DNA of 64,000 bases from Patescibacteria group bacterium (GCA_038065715.1 JBBTQL010000004.1:35693-99692), one strand, 5' to 3'; shown: positions 2,834 to 57,953, counted from the stretch's first letter. Notes: generated from the letters alone by a model not told the origin. Numbers and translations: made by a program.

Positions 2834-3331
2834 TTAAGTCCAATAATTTTTTAACGAAGCGCAAATAGCCAGCCCCAAAGCATCAAAAGCATCGTCCTTT
2901 TTTCTATTGTTTTTTTTAAAATCAAACCCGTTTAAATCCAATGTTTTTTTTAGCATCTCTTGCATTTGTTTTTTTTCTGCCCTGCCATACCCAGTGATAG
3001 CCATTTTCACTTGCAAAGGAGTAAATTCTACAACTGGCAATTTTTTTTCTTCAGCCGCAAGCAGTATTACTCCCTTTGTTTGGCTTACGGGAATTGCTGT
3101 TTTTAAATTTTTAAAGAAAAATAAATTTTCAACAGCCATTATTTCAGGTTTATGCTTTGCAATCAGTTTTTCTGTTTCTTTGTATATTTTTTTTAATCTT
3201 TCTCCAGTGGTTGCAAACTGCTCTGTTATTATGCATCCAAAATCAATAACCTCAACGCGGCAGTCTTTATGCTTTTTGATAATAGAATAGCCAACCACCA
3301 CAGACCCCGGATCTATGCCTAAGATTATCAT
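2834..3331 (-). CDS. ruvC: Holliday junction resolvase RuvC
   Basis: 165 aa. N-terminal ILGIDPGSVVVGYSII RNase H-fold motif; C-terminal DAFDALGLAIC. Confidence 0.9.
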   Translation of the reverse strand: MIILGIDPGSVVVGYSIIKKHKDCRVEVIDFGCIITEQFATTGERLKKIYKETEKLIAKHKPEIMAVENLFFFKNLKTAIPVSQTKGVILLAAEEKKLPVVEFTPLQVKMAITGYGRAEKKQMQEMLKKTLDLNGFDFKKNNRKKDDAFDALGLAICASLKNYWT

Positions 3332-8805: not shown

Positions 8806-9312
8806 ATGAGAAATAAAATTATAACAAAAAGTTTTAAAGAAACTCAAAAAATTGGCGAGAAATTGGCAGATGAAATTTTGAAATTACTGCCGCAAAAAAG
8901 CGCAATAATTTTAGGTTTGAACGGAAACCTTGGGGGAGGCAAAACAACCTTCTTGCAAGGTTTTGCAAAAGGGCTGGGAATTAAAGAAAAAATATTAAGC
9001 CCCACCTTTGTAATTTACAAAAAGTTTATTATTTCACCAATACTTATAAATAAGCGTACGCAGAATTTGGAGTATCGCCAATTTTATCACTTTGATTGCT
9101 ATCGCATAAAAAATTACAAAGACTTTTTGGCGATAGGATTTTCCGCCCAAGGCGGACCAGCCTCGGGCTGGAAAGAAATAATTTCAAACCCAAAAAATAT
9201 TGTGGCAATTGAATGGCCAGAAAAAATTAAAAAGATTTTTCCAAAAACTGCCGTAAAGATAAATTTTAAATTTATCAACGAAAGCGCAAGAGAGTTGACA
9301 ATTAATAAATAA
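8806..9312 (+). CDS. tsaE: tRNA t6A biosynthesis ATPase TsaE
   Basis: P-loop GNLGGGKTTFLQGFAKGLGI, SPTF and YHFDCYRI motifs. ATG 8806 preferred over the TTG at 8797 in the track. Confidence 0.85.
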   Translation: MRNKIITKSFKETQKIGEKLADEILKLLPQKSAIILGLNGNLGGGKTTFLQGFAKGLGIKEKILSPTFVIYKKFIISPILINKRTQNLEYRQFYHFDCYRIKNYKDFLAIGFSAQGGPASGWKEIISNPKNIVAIEWPEKIKKIFPKTAVKINFKFINESARELTINK

Positions 9313-9323
9313 TATGATAAACT
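9295..9323 (+). promoter_or_regulatory. Sigma-70-like promoter with TG-extended -10
   Basis: TTGACA, 17-nt spacer ending AATATGA, then TAAACT. The same architecture occurs at the DGR target, csrA and other promoters in this window. Confidence 0.55.
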
Positions 9324-9329
9324 CTAAAT

Positions 9330-9578
9330 TAGTTCCTGAAAAAACGTTTAGTTAGCGGCAAGGCGCCTTTTTTACCAACGGGGAAAGATGGAGCAATACC
9401 CATCTGAAAGCGCGTTGGATTGCTGAGATAATCTTTGTCACCCTGACACAAAGAAACGATTTTTGGCAAAGAGGCGCGCTGGAAAAGAAATGCCAGCCGA
9501 ATCTATTGGAGTCGATTCGGCGCCGCTAACCTTAAAGCCCCTTGTTTTGCAACTCGCAGAACAAGGGGCTGATTTTTT
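9330..9578 (+). ncRNA. Unclassified structured RNA with its own promoter and terminator
   Basis: Closing stem GTTAGCGGC (9351-9359) / GCCGCTAAC (9522-9530). At least 5 internal hairpins, then terminator AGCCCCTTGTT..AACAAGGGGCT plus T-run (9536-9578). No convincing ORF on this strand. Confidence 0.5.
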
Positions 9579-9632
9579 GAATAATTTGACATTATTATTA
9601 GTATAATAGTATTATAAATAATAATTAAATAT

Positions 9633-9845
9633 ATGTCTAAAAAAGTAATTTTATTAAAATCAACAGTAAGAAGGGAAAAAGGCGTGGTGGTTTTACCTTT
9701 GGAAAAATGGCAGAAACTGGAAAAAGAAAAATATGAACTTAAAGAGGTGGTAAAAGCGGTTTTAGAGGGAGAATTAGCGCTGAGGTCAGGGAAAACCAGG
9801 TCTTTTAGAGATTTTATAAAAGACAAATATGCCAAAGATTTTTAA
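9633..9845 (+). CDS. Type II antitoxin (partner of the RelE-like toxin)
   Basis: 70 aa, overlaps the downstream toxin gene by 17 nt, and has the typical small antitoxin size. Confidence 0.6.
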   Translation: MSKKVILLKSTVRREKGVVVLPLEKWQKLEKEKYELKEVVKAVLEGELALRSGKTRSFRDFIKDKYAKDF

Positions 9846-10101
9846 ATCGCATTCTACCCCTCATTTTGAAAGCAAATTTGATAAACTTCCGGAAGATATT
9901 AAAAAAATCGCGCTTAGAAAAATTTTACTTTTTGAAAGTAATTTTCTTCATCCCAGCTTAAATACGCACAAATTAAAAGGGCCCCTTTCTAACTTTTGGG
10001 CTTTTTATATTACTAAAAACTATAGAGTTCTTTTTCAGTTTTTAAAGAATAAAGAAGTCATCTATTATGATATTGATACCCACGATATTTATAAAAAATA
10101 A
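9829..10101 (+). CDS. RelE/YafQ-type mRNA interferase toxin
   Basis: 90 aa. Pattern ..HKLKGPLSNFWAFYITKNYRVLFQF....IYYDIDTHDIYKK is typical of RelE/ParE superfamily toxins. Confidence 0.75.
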   Translation: MPKIFKSHSTPHFESKFDKLPEDIKKIALRKILLFESNFLHPSLNTHKLKGPLSNFWAFYITKNYRVLFQFLKNKEVIYYDIDTHDIYKK

Positions 10102-10998
10102 ATGGAAACAAAACGGCTTATAATAATTGATTCTAATGCCCTGTTACATAGGGCATTTCATGCTTTGCCGCCTTTAACCAATAAAAAAGGCGAACCAACT
10201 GGAGCTGTTTACGGGTATCTGCTGATTTTATTTAAGGCAATAAAAGATTTAAAAGCAAATTACGTGGTTGCCTGTTTTGACACAAAGGCAAAAACTTTCC
10301 GCCACGAAGAATTTAAAGAATATAAGGCGCATAGAGTTGCCACGCCAGACGGCATAATCTCGCAAATACCAATAGCAAAAAAAGTCCTTCAGGCTTTCAG
10401 GATTCCTGTTTTTGCAAAAGATGGATTTGAAGCAGACGATTTAATTGCAACCATTGCTACAGAAGTCGCTAAAAAAGATAACTTAGAAGTTTATATTTTA
10501 AGCGGCGACTTAGATAATTTACAGCTTGTTTCAAATAATATAAAGGTTTATACTTTAGGTAAGGGCATAAAAGATACCGTGGTTTATGACAAAAATAAAG
10601 TTGTAGAACGTTTTGGAGTGGAGCCTTTGCAGATGAATGATTTTAAAGCGTTAACAGGAGACGCTTCAGATAATATTCCTGGGGTTCCCGGCATTGGCAA
10701 AACAACAGCGGCAGATTTAATACAAAGATACGGCAATATAAAAAATATTTATGACGAGCTTTCAACAGACACAGCTGTTTTAAAACCAAAAATAAAAGAA
10801 GCTTTGAAAAACAATAAAGAGTCAGCTTTTCTTTCTCTCAAGCTAGTAGAAACAAAAAAAAATGTTGATATAGATTTTAAAATTGATGATTGCGAGTTTG
10901 GCAAATTTGATTTTAAAGAAGTTGAAAATATTTTTAGAGAATTAGATTTTAATACTTTAATTGATCGTTTAAAATCAATAACAAACAGTAATTATTAA
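10102..10998 (+). CDS. Stand-alone 5'-3' exonuclease (Pol I N-terminal/FEN domain)
   Basis: 298 aa. LIIIDSNALLHRAFHA and the H3TH segment DNIPGVPGIGKTTAADLI; no polymerase domain. Confidence 0.9.
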   Translation: METKRLIIIDSNALLHRAFHALPPLTNKKGEPTGAVYGYLLILFKAIKDLKANYVVACFDTKAKTFRHEEFKEYKAHRVATPDGIISQIPIAKKVLQAFRIPVFAKDGFEADDLIATIATEVAKKDNLEVYILSGDLDNLQLVSNNIKVYTLGKGIKDTVVYDKNKVVERFGVEPLQMNDFKALTGDASDNIPGVPGIGKTTAADLIQRYGNIKNIYDELSTDTAVLKPKIKEALKNNKESAFLSLKLVETKKNVDIDFKIDDCEFGKFDFKEVENIFRELDFNTLIDRLKSITNSNY

Positions 10999-12565: not shown

Positions 12566-13303
12566 ATGCCATATAGAAAAGAACAATTTGTGAACGGAGA
12601 TATTTATCACATTACCAATAGAGCAATTGATGATAACTTAATTTTTAAAGATAAAAACGATTATTATCGCGGTATTTTTTCTATTTATGAATTTAATAAT
12701 GAAAAACCTGTGAATATATCTAATAGAAGACGAGATCGGATTGTCGAAAAAGAAAGAGAAAAACCGTGTGAGACCGGGTCTCATGCGAAGCTTTCTTCGG
12801 ATGAAAGGGAAAAGTTGGTGGATATTTTTGCATTTTGTTTTATGCCAAATCATATTCATCTTTTGGTAAAACAGCTGGAAGATAATGGAATAACTAATTT
12901 TATGAAAAAAGTCGGCATAGGATATGGAGGTTATTTTAATAGAAAATATCAGCGCAAAGGTTATGTTTTCCAAAACAGATTTAAATCAGTTCACATAGAG
13001 AATGACAATCAATTTATGGTGGTTGTGCCGTACATATTTACAAATCCCACCGCATTAATAGAGCCAGGGTGGAAAGGACAGGGGATCAAAAATCACTCCA
13101 CCAAAGAGGTGCTTAAATTTTTAGAAGAATACAAGTGGTCAAGTTATCAAGATTGTATTGGAATTAAGAATTTTGATTCTGTCACACAAAGAGATTTTTT
13201 ATTAGAAATGATGGCAGGCAAACAAGGTTGTAAAGACGCAGTTGAAAATTGGATAAAAAATAAAGTCGAAATTGGACAGCACGCAAATATTTTATTAGAT
13301 TAA
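12566..13303 (+). CDS. REP-associated tyrosine transposase (RAYT, IS200/IS605 Y1 HUH family)
   Basis: 245 aa. YHITNRA, the HUH motif in FMPNHIHLLV, and a C-terminal Tyr-containing region. Flanked by REP-like hairpins. Confidence 0.8.
   Translation: MPYRKEQFVNGDIYHITNRAIDDNLIFKDKNDYYRGIFSIYEFNNEKPVNISNRRRDRIVEKEREKPCETGSHAKLSSDEREKLVDIFAFCFMPNHIHLLVKQLEDNGITNFMKKVGIGYGGYFNRKYQRKGYVFQNRFKSVHIENDNQFMVVVPYIFTNPTALIEPGWKGQGIKNHSTKEVLKFLEEYKWSSYQDCIGIKNFDSVTQRDFLLEMMAGKQGCKDAVENWIKNKVEIGQHANILLD
12766..12786. repeat. REP-like hairpin inside the RAYT coding sequence (in frame)
   Basis: AAAACCGTGTGAGACCGGGTCTCATGC closely matches AAAACCGTGTGAGATCGGGTCTCACAC at 13303-13330. Encodes ..KPCETGSHA.. Confidence 0.65.
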
Positions 13304-24218: not shown

Positions 24219-24878
24219 ATGGCTGTGCAAGTCATTGGCGATCTATATGTGGAGTTGGATGGGAAGTTGGCGGAGATTAAGCGGCAAATGAGGCAGCAGG
24301 GAGGCTATCCGTTTGACCCGGAGAAATTAAACAAGTTTCTCCAACTAGCTGTCGAGGGCAGGTTCAACGACAACCGGTGCTGGTGCGAGAAGGAAGGAGT
24401 GATCTACTTTGAGGTCACCTCTGACGGCACGACTGGACCCCAATGGATTGAGCGTCTGGAGAAGAAGGGTATCCAGCTCTCCAAGTGGGCCAAGGACGTC
24501 CTGCTGTCTCCGGACTTCAAGCCGACCAACGGCGTGACCACCGAGATCGCTGTCCTCAAGGGCGCGCTTTTTATGGACAATGATCGCATCACGTCTAAGA
24601 TCCGCGCTGAGGCCGACAAGCGCAAGCTCGTCAAGCCCGAAGCCGAACTCGGTTGCCTTATCCGCGACACGTTCACGGACGAGGAAATCGAAGCCATGGG
24701 TCTTGTGTGGATCGTGGCGTTCCACGAGCCCATCAAGGACTCTGACGGCGATCCGACGTTGCTCGGTGCGCGTCGCCTTGGCGATGGCCGTTGGCTGCGC
24801 GCGTGCTGCGGCCTGCCCGACCGCAGGTGGCTTCGCGACCGTGGCTTTGCCTTCGCCGTCTCGCAAGTATCTTCGTAA
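24219..24878 (+). CDS. DGR-1 variable (target) protein with C-terminal VR, no signal peptide
   Basis: 219 aa; RBS AAAGGAG before the ATG. Sampled 60-nt lines are about 60-65% GC versus about 30% for the genome. The C-terminal 42 codons are the VR. Confidence 0.85.
   Translation: MAVQVIGDLYVELDGKLAEIKRQMRQQGGYPFDPEKLNKFLQLAVEGRFNDNRCWCEKEGVIYFEVTSDGTTGPQWIERLEKKGIQLSKWAKDVLLSPDFKPTNGVTTEIAVLKGALFMDNDRITSKIRAEADKRKLVKPEAELGCLIRDTFTDEEIEAMGLVWIVAFHEPIKDSDGDPTLLGARRLGDGRWLRACCGLPDRRWLRDRGFAFAVSQVSS
24741..24866 (+). repeat. Variable repeat VR-1
   Basis: Gap-free 126-nt alignment with TR-1. There are 21 substitutions opposite TR adenines and one C/G difference; the last 25 nt are identical. Confidence 0.9.
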
Positions 24879-24974
24879 GTCCTTTGGGCTTGAGCCTTTG
24901 CTCTAGCCCTTGGATCCTCTGCCCTTTGCATTTCCTCACGGACTTGCACTGGGCAGATTTTTTTTGCTAAAATA

Positions 24975-25334
24975 TAAATGGTAATAGGTGAATCTTGCGG
25001 GAGATCAAGGTTTCCCGCGGCCGAATCCAGTATTCGTATGCTGAGAGCGTTTGCGATTAAGGTTGCAAACGGAGGGCATACGAATTACTTTCAAAAAAGA
25101 AGATACTTGGCGTGGGAAACTAGGGCATTACGATGCCGAATTCGATACAGCCCTGTGATCGTAAAACTACTTCAAGGGGCAGTGGCATAGATGGTTTCTT
25201 GCGTATTTCTGACGGCGATCCGAACTTGCTCAGTGCGAATCGCAATGACGATGGCCATTGGCTGAACGCGTACTACGACAAGCCCGACAACAGGTGGAAT
25301 CGCGACAATGGCTTTGCCTTCGCCGTCTCGCAAC
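24975..25334 (+). ncRNA. Putative DGR-1 template RNA (structured 5' region plus TR)
   Basis: Candidate promoter TTGCAC-18-TAAAAT (TG-extended) near 24940-24972. Extended hairpin at 25029-25089 and blocks conserved with locus 2 up to 14 nt before TR. Transcript ends are not determined. Confidence 0.5.
25209..25334 (+). repeat. Template repeat TR-1 (noncoding)
   Basis: Copy of the VR with A at 21 variable positions, mostly in AAC/AAT codons of the VR frame. No RBS or start codon. Confidence 0.9.
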
Positions 25335-25339
25335 TCTCT

Positions 25340-25699
25340 TCATTTCTCTCCTTGCTTAGGAGAGTTTTGTTTAATAATTTGTCCCGACCAACCACCGAGC
25401 ATTTTGCCAATTTCATCTAGTTTCAATGATAGAGCAATATATTTTTTGTTATCCAATGATTTTGTTTCCCAAAGAATCATTAAAAATATTTTTAACGTAT
25501 CGACCTTTCTAATTGCTAAACGTACATAGGACAATTTTTCTGATTGCCCAAGAAAACTTGCAGTCACTATTGCCTCTATTGCTTCAACAAAAAGTTTATC
25601 AATTTTTTCACCAAGAGAATATTTATGTATTTTTGGTATAATTAAATAGTGTTGGTACCAAAAAAGATAAGCTTCTTTCAACTTTTGCAAAACAGGCAA
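25340..25699 (-). CDS. avd: DGR accessory variability determinant (Avd-like four-helix-bundle protein)
   Basis: About 119 aa from a TTG start (LPVLQKLKEAYLFWYQ...). Homologous to the 122-aa ORF at 63274-63642. Helical pattern with C-terminal IGKMLGGW. The track ORF extends further upstream (25834), probably spuriously. Confidence 0.8.
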   Translation of the reverse strand: MPVLQKLKEAYLFWYQHYLIIPKIHKYSLGEKIDKLFVEAIEAIVTASFLGQSEKLSYVRLAIRKVDTLKIFLMILWETKSLDNKKYIALSLKLDEIGKMLGGWSGQIIKQNSPKQGEK

Positions 25700-25705
25700 C
25701 AGTCT

Positions 25706-25715
25706 GGGGGGGGGG
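25706..25715. repeat. Homopolymeric G10 tract in the avd/RT divergent gap
   Basis: G10 lies 6 nt from the avd TTG start and 24 nt before the RT ATG. The paralogous position in DGR-2 has G7. Confidence 0.9.
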
Positions 25716-25739
25716 ATTAAAAGCTGAGTTATTTTGATT

Positions 25740-38037: not shown

Positions 38038-38054
38038 TTGTATTTATTATTTTA

Positions 38055-38403
38055 GTGGAAGCGCCGGGGTCGAACCCGGGTCCAGAAATTTTTTAAAAAT
38101 AAATCTACAAATTTATCTTGCTTTGTTGTTTGGATATTAAATAAGAAGCAAGAAAAATGTTTAATATCCTAATTCTCGTAAATCTCGACAGTTCCCCGAG
38201 AAATAAAACTGCCTATCCTGAAAATATAACACCCTCGGTCCATTTATCAGGAGTCAATGGCGAGGATGCAGCATTAAGCTAAAGCTAGTGCTGGTTGCCT
38301 ATTAAATAAATTAGCAATTATGTTTTTTCTATAAGTTTAACCAGGTTATAGAAAACTGGATTTGCATATTTTTAATGAAACATCTGTCAAAACTTACGCT
38401 CCC
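38055..38403 (-). ncRNA. ssrA: tmRNA (SsrA)
   Basis: 5' GGGAGCG pairs with 3' CGCTTCC-A, including a G3:U pair. T-arm GGACCCGGGTTCGACCCCGG. Tag frame GCT AAT ... GCT TAA predicts ANLFNRQPALALA. Adjacent to smpB. Confidence 0.85.
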
Positions 38404-57698: not shown

Positions 57699-57953
57699 AT
57701 GCTGGTTTTGTCCCGCAAGAAGAACGAGAGCATTGTCATCAACGACGATATCACGATTGTCGTGATAGAAATCCGCGGCGACAAGGTTCGCCTCGGCATT
57801 GATGCGCCAAAAGAGGTGCCTGTCCACCGGCGCGAAGTGTTTGACGCGATACGTCGCGATGATGCTTCAGCAGCTAGTACGGGGATTAAAACCTCCGAGA
57901 CCCCCGATAATCTGGAGGATCCCGCCGAGGAAAGCCCTCAAGACCCAGGTTAA
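57699..57953 (+). CDS. csrA: Carbon storage regulator CsrA, GC-rich island
   Basis: MLVLSRKKNESIVINDDITIVVIEIRGDKVRLGIDAPKEVPVHRREVF, plus an acidic, Pro-rich tail. RBS AAAGGAGAG. Confidence 0.85.
   Translation: MLVLSRKKNESIVINDDITIVVIEIRGDKVRLGIDAPKEVPVHRREVFDAIRRDDASAASTGIKTSETPDNLEDPAEESPQDPG

What the first reader, a model, noticed from the sequence alone, without database searches (positions are those of the whole stretch)
9295..9578. Independent, highly structured roughly 250-nt RNA of unknown class
Seen in sequence:
- A strong promoter lies at 9295-9323 (TTGACA, 17 nt, TAAACT, with TG-extended -10).
- The closing stem is 9 bp: GTTAGCGGC / GCCGCTAAC (9351-9359 and 9522-9530).
- Internal hairpins are CCAACG/CGTTGG enclosing GATGG/CCATC, TCTTTGT/ACAAAGA, GCTGG/CCAGC and CCGAATC/GATTCGG.
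- A strong terminator lies at 9536-9578.
- There is no credible ORF. The 110-aa minus-strand ORF in the track is low-complexity antisense.
- The next gene is a toxin-antitoxin pair, so a riboswitch role is unlikely.
- I could not match it to RNase P, SRP, 6S, TPP, M-box or c-di-AMP consensus features by eye.

Inference: it is either a housekeeping RNA too divergent to recognise by eye or a novel lineage-specific ncRNA.
Basis: seen in the sequence. Interest (0 to 1): 0.5.

Follow-up and report, generated by a model that had tools for sequence, protein, structure and literature searches.

The report
Orphan structured RNA beside tsaE
A 180-base stretch that folds into an unusually stable multi-hairpin RNA, with a promoter before it and a strong terminator after it, is really there, but it matches no known RNA family and was found only in this one groundwater bacterium, so its function stays unproven.

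Summary
The stems, promoter match and terminator sit at the stated coordinates. The 180-nt core (9351-9530, + strand) folds at -69.8 kcal/mol (z = -5.4), clearly better than its reverse complement (z = -3.8). Its GC is 49%, against 30-35% for the flanking genes and the window's tmRNA.

It matches none of the 4227 Rfam families, even at E <= 10, and has no coding potential or protein-level relatives.

The element is an orphan. The closest relatives (TsaE 61-64% identical, same synteny) have tsaE followed 11-66 nt later by the 5'-3' exonuclease gene. So window ~9324-10101 (RNA unit plus toxin-antitoxin pair) is inserted sequence seen only in this species. TA homologues up to 90% identical sit in many other contexts without the RNA.

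A single-sequence covariance model, pattern scans of metagenome and viral collections, and phage and plasmid BLAST found no second copy. The three contigs that carry it are clonal, so covariation cannot be assessed.

No antiterminator competes with the terminator, which argues against a riboswitch.

Best reading: a species-restricted, stand-alone non-coding transcript laid out like a 3'UTR-type sRNA with its own promoter. A functionless foreign relic remains a serious rival. Interest is modest.

The parts
9295..9323 (+). Sigma-70-type promoter match (TTGACA, 17 nt, TG-n-TAAACT) overlapping the tsaE stop codon at 9310-9312. The predicted start is near 9330.
   Evidence: 10 of 12 positions, TG present. 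The -35 lies in the last codons of tsaE. Part of the -10 region resembles the ancestral tsaE-exo spacer of relatives. Promoter-like sites are at chance density here, so it is inferred, not shown.
9330..9350 (+). Predicted unstructured 5' leader (UAGUUCCUGAAAAAACGUUUA).
   Evidence: Unpaired in the MFE and centroid folds. The start point is inferred from the -10 position.
9351..9530 (+). Structured core, 180 nt, 59 predicted base pairs. P1 (9351-9359/9522-9530) closes a junction with three branches: P2 (9363-9371/9469-9477), hairpin C (about 9478-9497) and hairpin D (9496-9521). P2 leads to a three-way junction bearing hairpin A (9375-9418) and hairpin B (9421-9468).
   Evidence: -69.8 kcal/mol, z = -5.39, pair probabilities mostly above 0.9. 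GC is 49% against 30-35% for flanking genes and the tmRNA. The + strand folds better than the - strand.
9375..9418 (+). Hairpin A: 6-bp outer stem, asymmetric purine-rich internal loop (GGGAA / GAAAGCG), 6-bp inner stem, 8-nt loop AGCAAUAC.
   Evidence: The 5-nt complementarity of its loop (CAAUA) to loop D (UAUUG) is not significant: 12% of loop shuffles do as well.
9421..9468 (+). Hairpin B: 8-bp lower stem with four G-U pairs, internal loop, and TCTTTGT/ACAAAGA upper stem.
   Evidence: The G-U pairs would be A-C mismatches on the other strand, where this stem is lost.
9478..9521 (+). Hairpins C (GCTGG/CCAGC, 10-nt A-rich loop) and D (GCCGAATC/GATTCGGC, 10-nt loop UAUUGGAGUC).
9536..9578 (+). 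Intrinsic terminator: 15-bp stem, 5-nt loop, then GAUUUUUUG.
   Evidence: strongest in 20 kb. On the minus strand the hairpin is followed by only UUU.
9324..10101 (+). Sequence absent from the closest relatives. It holds the RNA unit, a second promoter (9586-9615), and the antitoxin (9633-9845) and RelE/HigB-like toxin (9829-10101), between tsaE and the 5'-3' exonuclease gene (10102-10998).
   Evidence: relatives: tsaE stop, 11-66 nt, exo ATG. (this spacer varies among 37 related genomes examined). (Pfam). (TA nucleotide homology to other genomes starts only at about 9603-9620).

Best explanation
This is a species-restricted, stand-alone non-coding RNA gene. The transcript is about 250 nt on the + strand. 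It starts either at the sigma-70-like promoter overlapping the end of tsaE or by read-through of tsaE mRNA. It folds into a compact 180-nt core: P1 closes a junction whose branches are P2, which carries two long hairpins, and two further hairpins. It ends at a strong intrinsic terminator.

This is the layout of a 3'UTR-type sRNA with its own promoter inside the upstream coding sequence and a terminator shared with the mRNA. The unit lies in inserted sequence between two genes that are adjacent in relatives. It is separate from the mobile toxin-antitoxin pair next to it.

Most of the molecule is locked in stable helices, and no alternative fold couples it to the terminator. I therefore infer that, if functional, it acts in trans as a structured scaffold or ligand- or protein-binding RNA, rather than as a cis switch or a classical seed-pairing sRNA.

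Shown: the structure, its strand bias, the boundaries, the absence of coding potential, the absence from all known families, and its status as an insertion. Inferred: transcription, the 5' end, and any trans activity.
For: - **Structure.** The core has z = -5.39 with high pair probabilities. The + strand is favoured over the - strand (-69.8 against -61.0 kcal/mol; z -5.39 against -3.77).
- **Composition.** It is a GC island: 49% against 33% for tsaE, 30% for the TA pair, 33% for exo and 35% for the tmRNA.
- **Boundaries.** A promoter match with perfect -35, 17-nt spacer and TG lies upstream, and the strongest terminator in 20 kb lies downstream.
- **No coding signal.** There is no ORF of at least 30 aa within the core on the + strand. 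A six-frame translation finds nothing among 5.8 billion proteins at E <= 10.
- **Separate from the TA pair.**
  - The TA pair has its own promoter.
  - TA nucleotide homology to other genomes begins only at about 9603-9620.
  - TA homologues at 70-90% identity sit in many contexts with upstream spacers of about 15-225 nt and no match to the RNA model.
- **Not a switch.** The terminator's 5' half does not pair with the core, even when the terminator's 3' half is blocked.
Against: - No homologue was found anywhere, so there is no covariation or conservation evidence.
- The three contigs fetched that carry it are essentially clonal: 0-3 differences in up to 6.3 kb, none in the RNA. Purifying selection cannot be assessed.
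- Promoter-like matches are at chance density in this genome.
- Its GC content differs even from the native tmRNA. That is equally what a recently acquired, functionless foreign fragment would look like.
- No expression data could be consulted.
Confidence: 0.45

Rival explanations
1. Functionless relic. A short GC-rich fragment of foreign or mobile DNA, such as a MITE-like element with 9-bp terminal inverted repeats or the scar of a larger insertion, landed in a spacer that tolerates insertions. Its hairpins are DNA-level or incidental, and the RNA has no role.
For: - It lies in sequence absent from the closest relatives, in a spacer that holds different small inserts in different genomes.
- Its GC of 49% is foreign to a genome whose own tmRNA is 35% GC.
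- It has perfect 9-bp terminal inverted repeats.
- No homologues and no conservation were found.
- A mobile TA pair sits immediately beside it.
Against: - There is only one copy in 64 kb and none in about 180 related or TA-bearing loci.
- No clear target-site duplication flanks the inverted repeats.
- Folding is strand-asymmetric, with G-U pairs that work only on the + strand. This is not expected for a DNA palindrome.
- It is neatly framed by a promoter match and a canonical terminator.
- It has no protein-coding ancestry.
Confidence: 0.25
2. Cis-acting 3' end of tsaE. The element is simply a long structured 3'UTR with a terminator. It stabilises tsaE mRNA and insulates it from the inserted, self-regulated TA-exonuclease transcription unit. 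It has no trans function.
For: - In the closest relatives examined, tsaE and exo lie 11-66 nt apart, so they are presumably co-transcribed.
- Here the strongest local terminator follows the element, and a new promoter serves TA-exo.
- Transcription from tsaE into the element is expected whether or not the internal promoter is real.
Against: - A terminator hairpin alone would do this job. A 180-nt, 59-bp multi-junction fold is far more than insulation or stabilisation needs.
- Other TA insertions of this family carry no such upstream element.
Confidence: 0.15
3. Riboswitch or attenuator. The core is a ligand-sensing aptamer, and the downstream terminator controls read-through into the TA-exonuclease genes.
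For: - The element is of aptamer-like size and complexity and is directly followed by an intrinsic terminator.
- The exonuclease gene lies downstream on the same strand, and in relatives it sits directly after tsaE.
Against: - No antiterminator exists. The core and the terminator fold independently, and blocking the terminator's 3' half does not recruit its 5' half into the core.
- The TA pair has its own good promoter after the terminator.
- Relatives regulate exo without any leader.
- It matches none of the riboswitch classes in Rfam.
- The putative aptamer is not conserved anywhere searched.
Confidence: 0.05
4. A divergent housekeeping RNA (6S, RNase P, SRP or similar) that covariance models fail to recognise.
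For: - Its size of about 180 nt is similar to 6S RNA.
- It appears to be an independent transcription unit.
- Patescibacteria have divergent RNAs.
Against: - No Rfam hit appears even at E <= 10 with permissive filters, while the tmRNA of the same genome scores 112 bits.
- The fold is branched, with no central bubble and no P4-type long-range helix.
- It is absent from the orthologous locus of the closest relatives and lies in inserted sequence.
Confidence: 0.03
5. An RNA partner of the adjacent toxin-antitoxin pair, for example an extra antitoxin or regulatory RNA that moves with the cassette.
For: - It is immediately adjacent to the TA pair.
- Both lie within the same stretch of about 780 nt that relatives lack.
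Against: - Fourteen distinct TA contexts (12 loci groups at 71-81% identity plus one at 90%) have no such RNA and usually under 100 nt of upstream spacer.
- Cassette homology starts at about 9603-9620, downstream of the RNA and its terminator.
Confidence: 0.03

Closest known systems
Type I 3'UTR-derived sRNAs, such as DapZ of Salmonella, which has its own promoter inside the 3' end of dapB and shares the mRNA's terminator (from my own knowledge: Chao et al. 2012; Miyakoshi, Chao and Vogel 2015)
   Same: - A promoter match overlaps the last codons and stop codon of the upstream gene (tsaE).
- The transcript would share the intrinsic terminator that also ends the tsaE mRNA.
- Its size is in the 100-300 nt range.
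- It is non-coding.
   Different: - Those sRNAs are mostly unstructured apart from the terminator, and they use a conserved single-stranded seed with Hfq or ProQ.
- This one is almost entirely locked in helices, shows no evident seed, and lies in recently inserted sequence rather than in a conserved 3'UTR.
- Expression and targets are untested.
Orphan structured ncRNA motifs of unknown function found by comparative genomics (raiA, and the much larger ROOL, GOLLD and OLE classes; Weinberg et al. 2010, PMC2864571, and the 2017 follow-up recalled from my own knowledge)
   Same: - A complex multi-stem fold.
- A GC-rich island in an AT-rich genome.
- No obvious cis-regulated gene.
- Function unknown.
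   Different: - Those classes are defined by many homologues with covariation, and all are in Rfam.
- This RNA matches none of them and has no known homologue at all.
Transcription-terminating riboswitches
   Same: A structured domain of about 180 nt closed by a P1 helix and followed within 5 nt by an intrinsic terminator.
   Different: - There is no competing antiterminator.
- There is no conserved aptamer.
- The downstream genes have their own promoter.
- Relatives lack any leader.
Miniature inverted-repeat transposable elements (MITEs) and other small non-autonomous insertions
   Same: - About 180 bp bounded by perfect 9-bp inverted repeats.
- It sits in inserted sequence at a spacer that tolerates insertions.
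- Its base composition looks foreign.
   Different: - It is single-copy in the DNA available.
- There is no target-site duplication.
- Folding is strand-asymmetric, with G-U pairs.
- It has its own terminator.

Membership tests
Any Rfam 15 family (4227 covariance models) | Score at or above the family's gathering threshold | tested here: not met
   the only hit in the 64-kb window is the tmRNA at 38053-38403; the best scores over 9250-9650 are 12-21 bits against thresholds of 35-100, all to unrelated eukaryotic or enterobacterial families.
6S RNA | Rod-like fold: a long closing stem, a large central bubble and a terminal stem; match to RF00013 | tested here: not met
   The MFE and centroid folds are multi-branched. 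P2's 3' strand continues directly from hairpin B, so there is no bubble. No RF00013 hit appears at E <= 10.
RNase P RNA / SRP RNA | Conserved P4 helix and CR-I to CR-V blocks (RNase P); domain IV loops with a GNAR tetraloop (SRP); match to the Rfam models | tested here: not met
   No hits at E <= 10. GGGGAAAG at 9380-9387 pairs locally within hairpin A, not in a long-range P4.
Terminator-type riboswitch | Mutually exclusive terminator and antiterminator structures | tested here: not met
   with the terminator's 3' half absent or blocked, the core is unchanged, and the terminator's 5' half forms only a weak local hairpin.
Terminator-type riboswitch | Aptamer conserved upstream of a functionally coherent gene set | tested here: not met
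   No homologue in 80 related tsaE loci, the closest relatives, TA loci, or the metagenome and viral pattern hits.
Type I 3'UTR-derived sRNA | Own promoter within the 3' end of the upstream coding sequence | tested here: inconclusive
   A good consensus match lies at 9295-9323. Such matches occur at chance density in this genome, and there are no 5'-end data.
Type I 3'UTR-derived sRNA | Shares the Rho-independent terminator of the upstream mRNA | tested here: met
   The only terminator between tsaE (stop at 9312) and the next gene is at 9536-9578.
Type I 3'UTR-derived sRNA | Accumulates as a discrete RNA and acts on trans targets | not testable with these tools
   No expression or interaction data are available.
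MITE / small mobile DNA repeat | Terminal inverted repeats | tested here: met
   9-bp perfect inverted repeat at 9351-9359 and 9522-9530.
MITE / small mobile DNA repeat | Multiple dispersed copies and target-site duplication | tested here: not met
   There is a single copy in the 64-kb window. The flanks ...CGTTTA| and |CTTAAA show no clean duplication. The whole genome could not be scanned.
Integron attC site | 5'-RYYYAAC ... GTTRRRY-3' core sites in that order, one imperfect hairpin with a short central spacer | tested here: not met
   The order here is reversed (GTTAGCG ... CGCTAAC). GTTAGCG does not fit GTTRRRY. Two extra hairpins totalling about 44 nt lie between the two 3' strands.
Retron msr-msd RNA | Adjacent reverse transcriptase gene downstream of the ncRNA | tested here: not met
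   The downstream genes are the antitoxin, toxin, 5'-3' exonuclease, a HAMP protein and Fpg. The only RT in the window belongs to a DGR 16 kb away.
TA-associated RNA (type I/III antitoxin or cassette-borne RNA) | Conserved linkage to the toxin gene; tandem repeats for type III | tested here: not met
   No RNA lies upstream of homologous TA pairs. Only two short two-copy direct repeats (15 and 8 nt), and no tandem array, occur in 9250-9650.

The most novel reading that the evidence does not exclude
The element could be the first sighted member of a new class of compact structured RNAs (a protein- or ligand-binding scaffold, or a ribozyme). On this reading it is carried on small mobile insertions in Patescibacteria. 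Its relatives would be invisible here only because the searchable collections could be queried by exact patterns, not by a covariance model.
Probability: 0.12. Interest if true: 0.6.

Novelty: new member of a known kind. Interest (0 to 1): 0.3.

Why it matters
If it is expressed and functional, it would be a rare documented non-housekeeping structured RNA in a Patescibacteria (CPR) genome. These organisms have tiny genomes and little room for non-essential sequence. It would also be an example of an RNA gene acquired by insertion into a tight operon junction, rewiring tsaE-exonuclease co-transcription.

As it stands, it is a well-formed but orphan candidate. Without homologues or expression data, it adds one entry to the long list of unexplained structured intergenic elements.

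Tried and rejected
**Known families**
1. Rfam at gathering and at E <= 10 gave nothing relevant.
2. ARAGORN found only the tmRNA.

**Synteny-based homologue search**
3. I fetched 80 tsaE loci from GTDB species representatives and the closest TsaE relatives. blastn, nhmmer and covariance model R1 found no copy. This showed instead that the RNA lies in inserted sequence.

**Linkage to the TA pair**
4. I examined TA homologues at 71-90% identity in 14 distinct contexts. None has the RNA.

**Coding or pseudogene origin**
5. A concatenated six-frame translation against 5.8 billion proteins gave nothing at E <= 10.

**Pattern scans**
6. The hairpin-A internal-loop motif was scanned in metagenome contigs (31 hits) and viral contigs (37 hits).
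7. The P1 inverted repeat (38 hits) and hairpin D (60 hits) were scanned in viral contigs.
8. All hits are at chance level. None is recognised by R1 beyond the seeded hairpin (best partial hit 15.5 bits, E = 0.055), and none folds like hairpin A.

**Other databases and strain variation**
9. Phage and plasmid BLAST gave no match.
10. The carrying contigs are clonal, so strain variation is uninformative.

**Structural ideas**
11. Antiterminator search: none found.
12. Loop A to loop D kissing interaction (CAAUA/UAUUG): 12% of shuffles do as well, so it is not evidence.
13. attC, retron, 6S, RNase P and SRP readings were rejected on defining features (see the membership tests).

**Literature**
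14. Searches for described Patescibacteria structured RNAs found nothing applicable.

**Limits**
- The genome contigs and metagenome-contig scans are single-use and pattern-based. Divergent homologues elsewhere in relatives' genomes could not be sought with the covariance model.

Full report
**Source and setting.** The window is from a Patescibacteria (Parcubacteria-type) metagenome-assembled genome from Hainich groundwater. The carrying record is ENA ERZ1292632, contig Hain_H43_01um_R2_27. NCBI proteins MEK7658354.1 and MEK7658356.1 come from a 'Patescibacteria group bacterium'. The window GC is 34%.

The finding lies between two genes:
- tsaE at 8806-9312 on the + strand (Pfam TsaE)
- a toxin-antitoxin pair: an antitoxin at 9633-9845, and a 90-aa toxin at 9829-10101 with sub-threshold HigB-like and YafQ Pfam matches, which sources name RelE/StbE family

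The 5'-3' exonuclease gene follows directly at 10102-10998.

**Checking the observation.**
- The promoter match TTGACA-17-TAAACT, with TG two bases upstream, is at 9295-9323.
- The 9-bp closing stem is at 9351-9359 and 9522-9530.
- The four hairpins are confirmed, along with a further 9-bp helix at 9363-9371/9469-9477.
- The terminator at 9536-9570 is followed by a T-run. With 15 pairs, it is the strongest terminator-like site in the first 20 kb.

The 180-nt core folds at -69.8 kcal/mol, against -47.3 +/- 4.2 for dinucleotide shuffles (z = -5.39). Most pairs have probability above 0.9. The reverse complement folds worse (-61.0 kcal/mol, z = -3.77), because hairpin B's lower stem uses four G-U pairs. 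With the T-run, this favours the + strand.

The core is a GC island at 49%. For comparison, tsaE is 33%, the TA pair 30%, exo 33%, and the genome's own tmRNA 35%.

One caveat applies. Promoter-like matches occur at chance density in this AT-rich DNA, with 59 found and 61.5 expected over 20 kb. The promoter is plausible but not statistically compelling. Transcription from tsaE read-through is expected in any case.

**What it is not.**
- **Not a known RNA family.** Rfam at gathering thresholds finds only the tmRNA at 38053-38403. A permissive scan of 9250-9650 at E <= 10 returns only noise. ARAGORN finds no tRNA-like gene here.
- **Not coding.** There is no credible ORF. A concatenated six-frame translation finds nothing among 5.8 billion proteins even at E <= 10. 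That also rules out a recognisable pseudogene fragment.
- **Not a terminator-type riboswitch.**
  - The core and the terminator fold independently. Removing or blocking the terminator's 3' half does not draw its 5' half into the core.
  - The TA pair has its own 11-of-12 promoter after the terminator.
- **Not a 6S-like rod.** It has no P4-type or SRP domain IV features either.

**Evolutionary context.** This is the main new result.

I fetched 80 tsaE loci from GTDB species representatives, at 42-61% TsaE identity. I also fetched the closest TsaE relatives in the protein collection, at 61-64% identity. The closest relatives keep the local gene order of T2SS ATPase, a protein of about 240-280 aa, tsaE, then the exonuclease. 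Their tsaE stop codon lies only 11-66 nt from the exonuclease start. In 37 of the 80 loci examined, tsaE is usually followed at once by a roughly 300-aa ORF. Where there is a gap, it holds unrelated small inserts.

So window ~9324-10101 (about 780 nt, the RNA unit plus the TA unit) is sequence these relatives lack.

The TA pair itself is a widespread mobile two-gene module of Parcubacteria. Homologues at 70-90% identity sit next to histidine kinase, ribosomal-protein, HicAB, PIN, Sua5 and other genes. They mostly have under 100 nt of upstream spacer, at most about 225 nt. Nucleotide homology to the window begins only at about 9603-9620, inside the TA promoter region and downstream of the RNA and its terminator. 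The RNA is therefore not part of the TA module.

**Search for homologues.**
- A covariance model was built from the single sequence and its MFE structure (R1: 180 positions, 59 pairs). It recovers the window copy at 227 bits.
  - It finds nothing in the window's other 63.8 kb, the 80 tsaE loci or the first TA loci.
  - It finds nothing in the closest relatives or the further TA loci.
  - The best non-self scores in these sets are under 10 bits.
- blastn and nhmmer agree.
- Phage and plasmid collections give no match.
- Exact-pattern scans gave hit numbers close to chance expectation. They used the purine-rich internal loop of hairpin A (metagenome contigs, 31 hits; viral contigs, 37 hits), the P1 inverted repeat (viral, 38 hits) and hairpin D (viral, 60 hits).
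  - None of the hits is recognised by R1 beyond the seeded hairpin (best partial hit 15.5 bits, E = 0.055), and none folds like hairpin A.
- The three fetched contigs that carry the RNA are clonal, with 0-3 differences over up to 6.3 kb and none in the RNA.

There is therefore no material for covariation analysis, and conservation cannot be shown. This is a real limitation of the evidence. It is also a limitation of the tools, since large collections could only be queried with exact patterns.

**Most likely explanation.** I commit to a species-restricted, stand-alone non-coding transcript of about 250 nt on the + strand. It starts at the promoter overlapping the tsaE stop, or arises as the tsaE 3'UTR, and ends at the strong terminator. 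The arrangement is that of a type I 3'UTR-derived sRNA such as DapZ (from my own knowledge of that literature).

The molecule is almost entirely helical and has no alternative fold tied to the terminator. A trans-acting scaffold or binding RNA is therefore a better guess than a seed-pairing sRNA or a cis switch. Confidence is 0.45.

- Shown: the fold, its strand bias, the boundaries, the lack of coding potential, non-membership of known families, insertion status, and independence from the TA pair.
- Inferred: transcription, the 5' end, and function.

A 5-nt complementarity between loops A and D (CAAUA/UAUUG) is not significant (12% of shuffles). I do not count it as evidence.

**Rivals.**
- A functionless foreign or mobile relic (0.25). 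This is supported by the foreign GC content, insertion status, the 9-bp inverted repeats and orphan status. It is weakened by the single copy, the lack of a target duplication, the strand-asymmetric folding and the tidy promoter-terminator framing.
- A purely cis 3'UTR or insulator for tsaE (0.15).
- A riboswitch or attenuator (0.05).
- A divergent housekeeping RNA (0.03).
- A TA-linked RNA (0.03).

**Verdict.** The interpretation 'novel lineage-specific ncRNA' remains possible but unproven. The 'divergent housekeeping RNA' option is very unlikely.

With no conservation, covariation or expression evidence, this is an orphan candidate of modest interest (0.3). I file it as a new member of a known general kind: an independently terminated small structured RNA at a gene's 3' end. 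The decisive work is strand-specific transcript mapping from the Hainich samples and a covariance-model search of complete Patescibacteria genomes and the Hainich assemblies.

Noticed in passing
window 24219-26726: A complete diversity-generating retroelement.
- The target gene is at 24219-24878. Its 3' variable region (24741-24874) is 82% identical to a template repeat at 25208-25341. All 24 differences fall at template adenines, the A-to-N pattern expected for a DGR.
- A bAvd-like gene lies at 25340-25834 on the - strand.
- A reverse transcriptase gene lies at 25734-26726.
- The region reaches 70% GC in a 34% GC genome.
   Followed up: partly
L084 about 1660-1730 and 2300-2390; L093 about 1720-1790 and 2275-2390; L094 about 1760-1790 and 2275-2300: In other Parcubacteria, the homologous TA pair is flanked by a diverged direct duplication of the 3' end of the upstream gene, including a TTGACA promoter element. 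The duplication is about 60 nt in L084 and L093 and about 20 nt in L094. This suggests the cassette inserts with a long target duplication or by recombination at promoter-bearing gene ends. No such duplication is evident in the window.
   Followed up: partly
window 9633-10101; L278 2117-3273; L178 609-1773: The same TA family sits directly after a t6A-pathway gene in three genomes: tsaE here, and Sua5/TsaC-family genes in L278 (90% identical toxin) and L178 (80%). This may be coincidence or a preferred landing site.
   Followed up: no
window 62234-63219 and 57788-57937: Further strongly GC-rich islands (54-65% and 59% GC over 150 nt) in a 34% GC window. They show no significant similarity to the DGR template repeat and were not examined further.
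   Followed up: no
window 12566-13303: A 245-aa ORF with an IS200-like Y1 transposase domain (Pfam Y1_Tnp, E = 1.8e-8), longer than typical TnpA. It lies 3 kb downstream of the finding, and no TnpB or associated RNA was seen.
   Followed up: no
window 38053-38403 (- strand): A tmRNA gene scoring 112 bits, with tag peptide ANLFNRQPALALA. It is only 35% GC, showing that native structured RNAs of this genome are AT-rich.
   Followed up: yes
L006 about 2985-3084: A run of 100 N directly after tsaE in a Staskawiczbacteria MAG. The length fits a standard scaffold gap, so that spacer cannot be read there.
   Followed up: no
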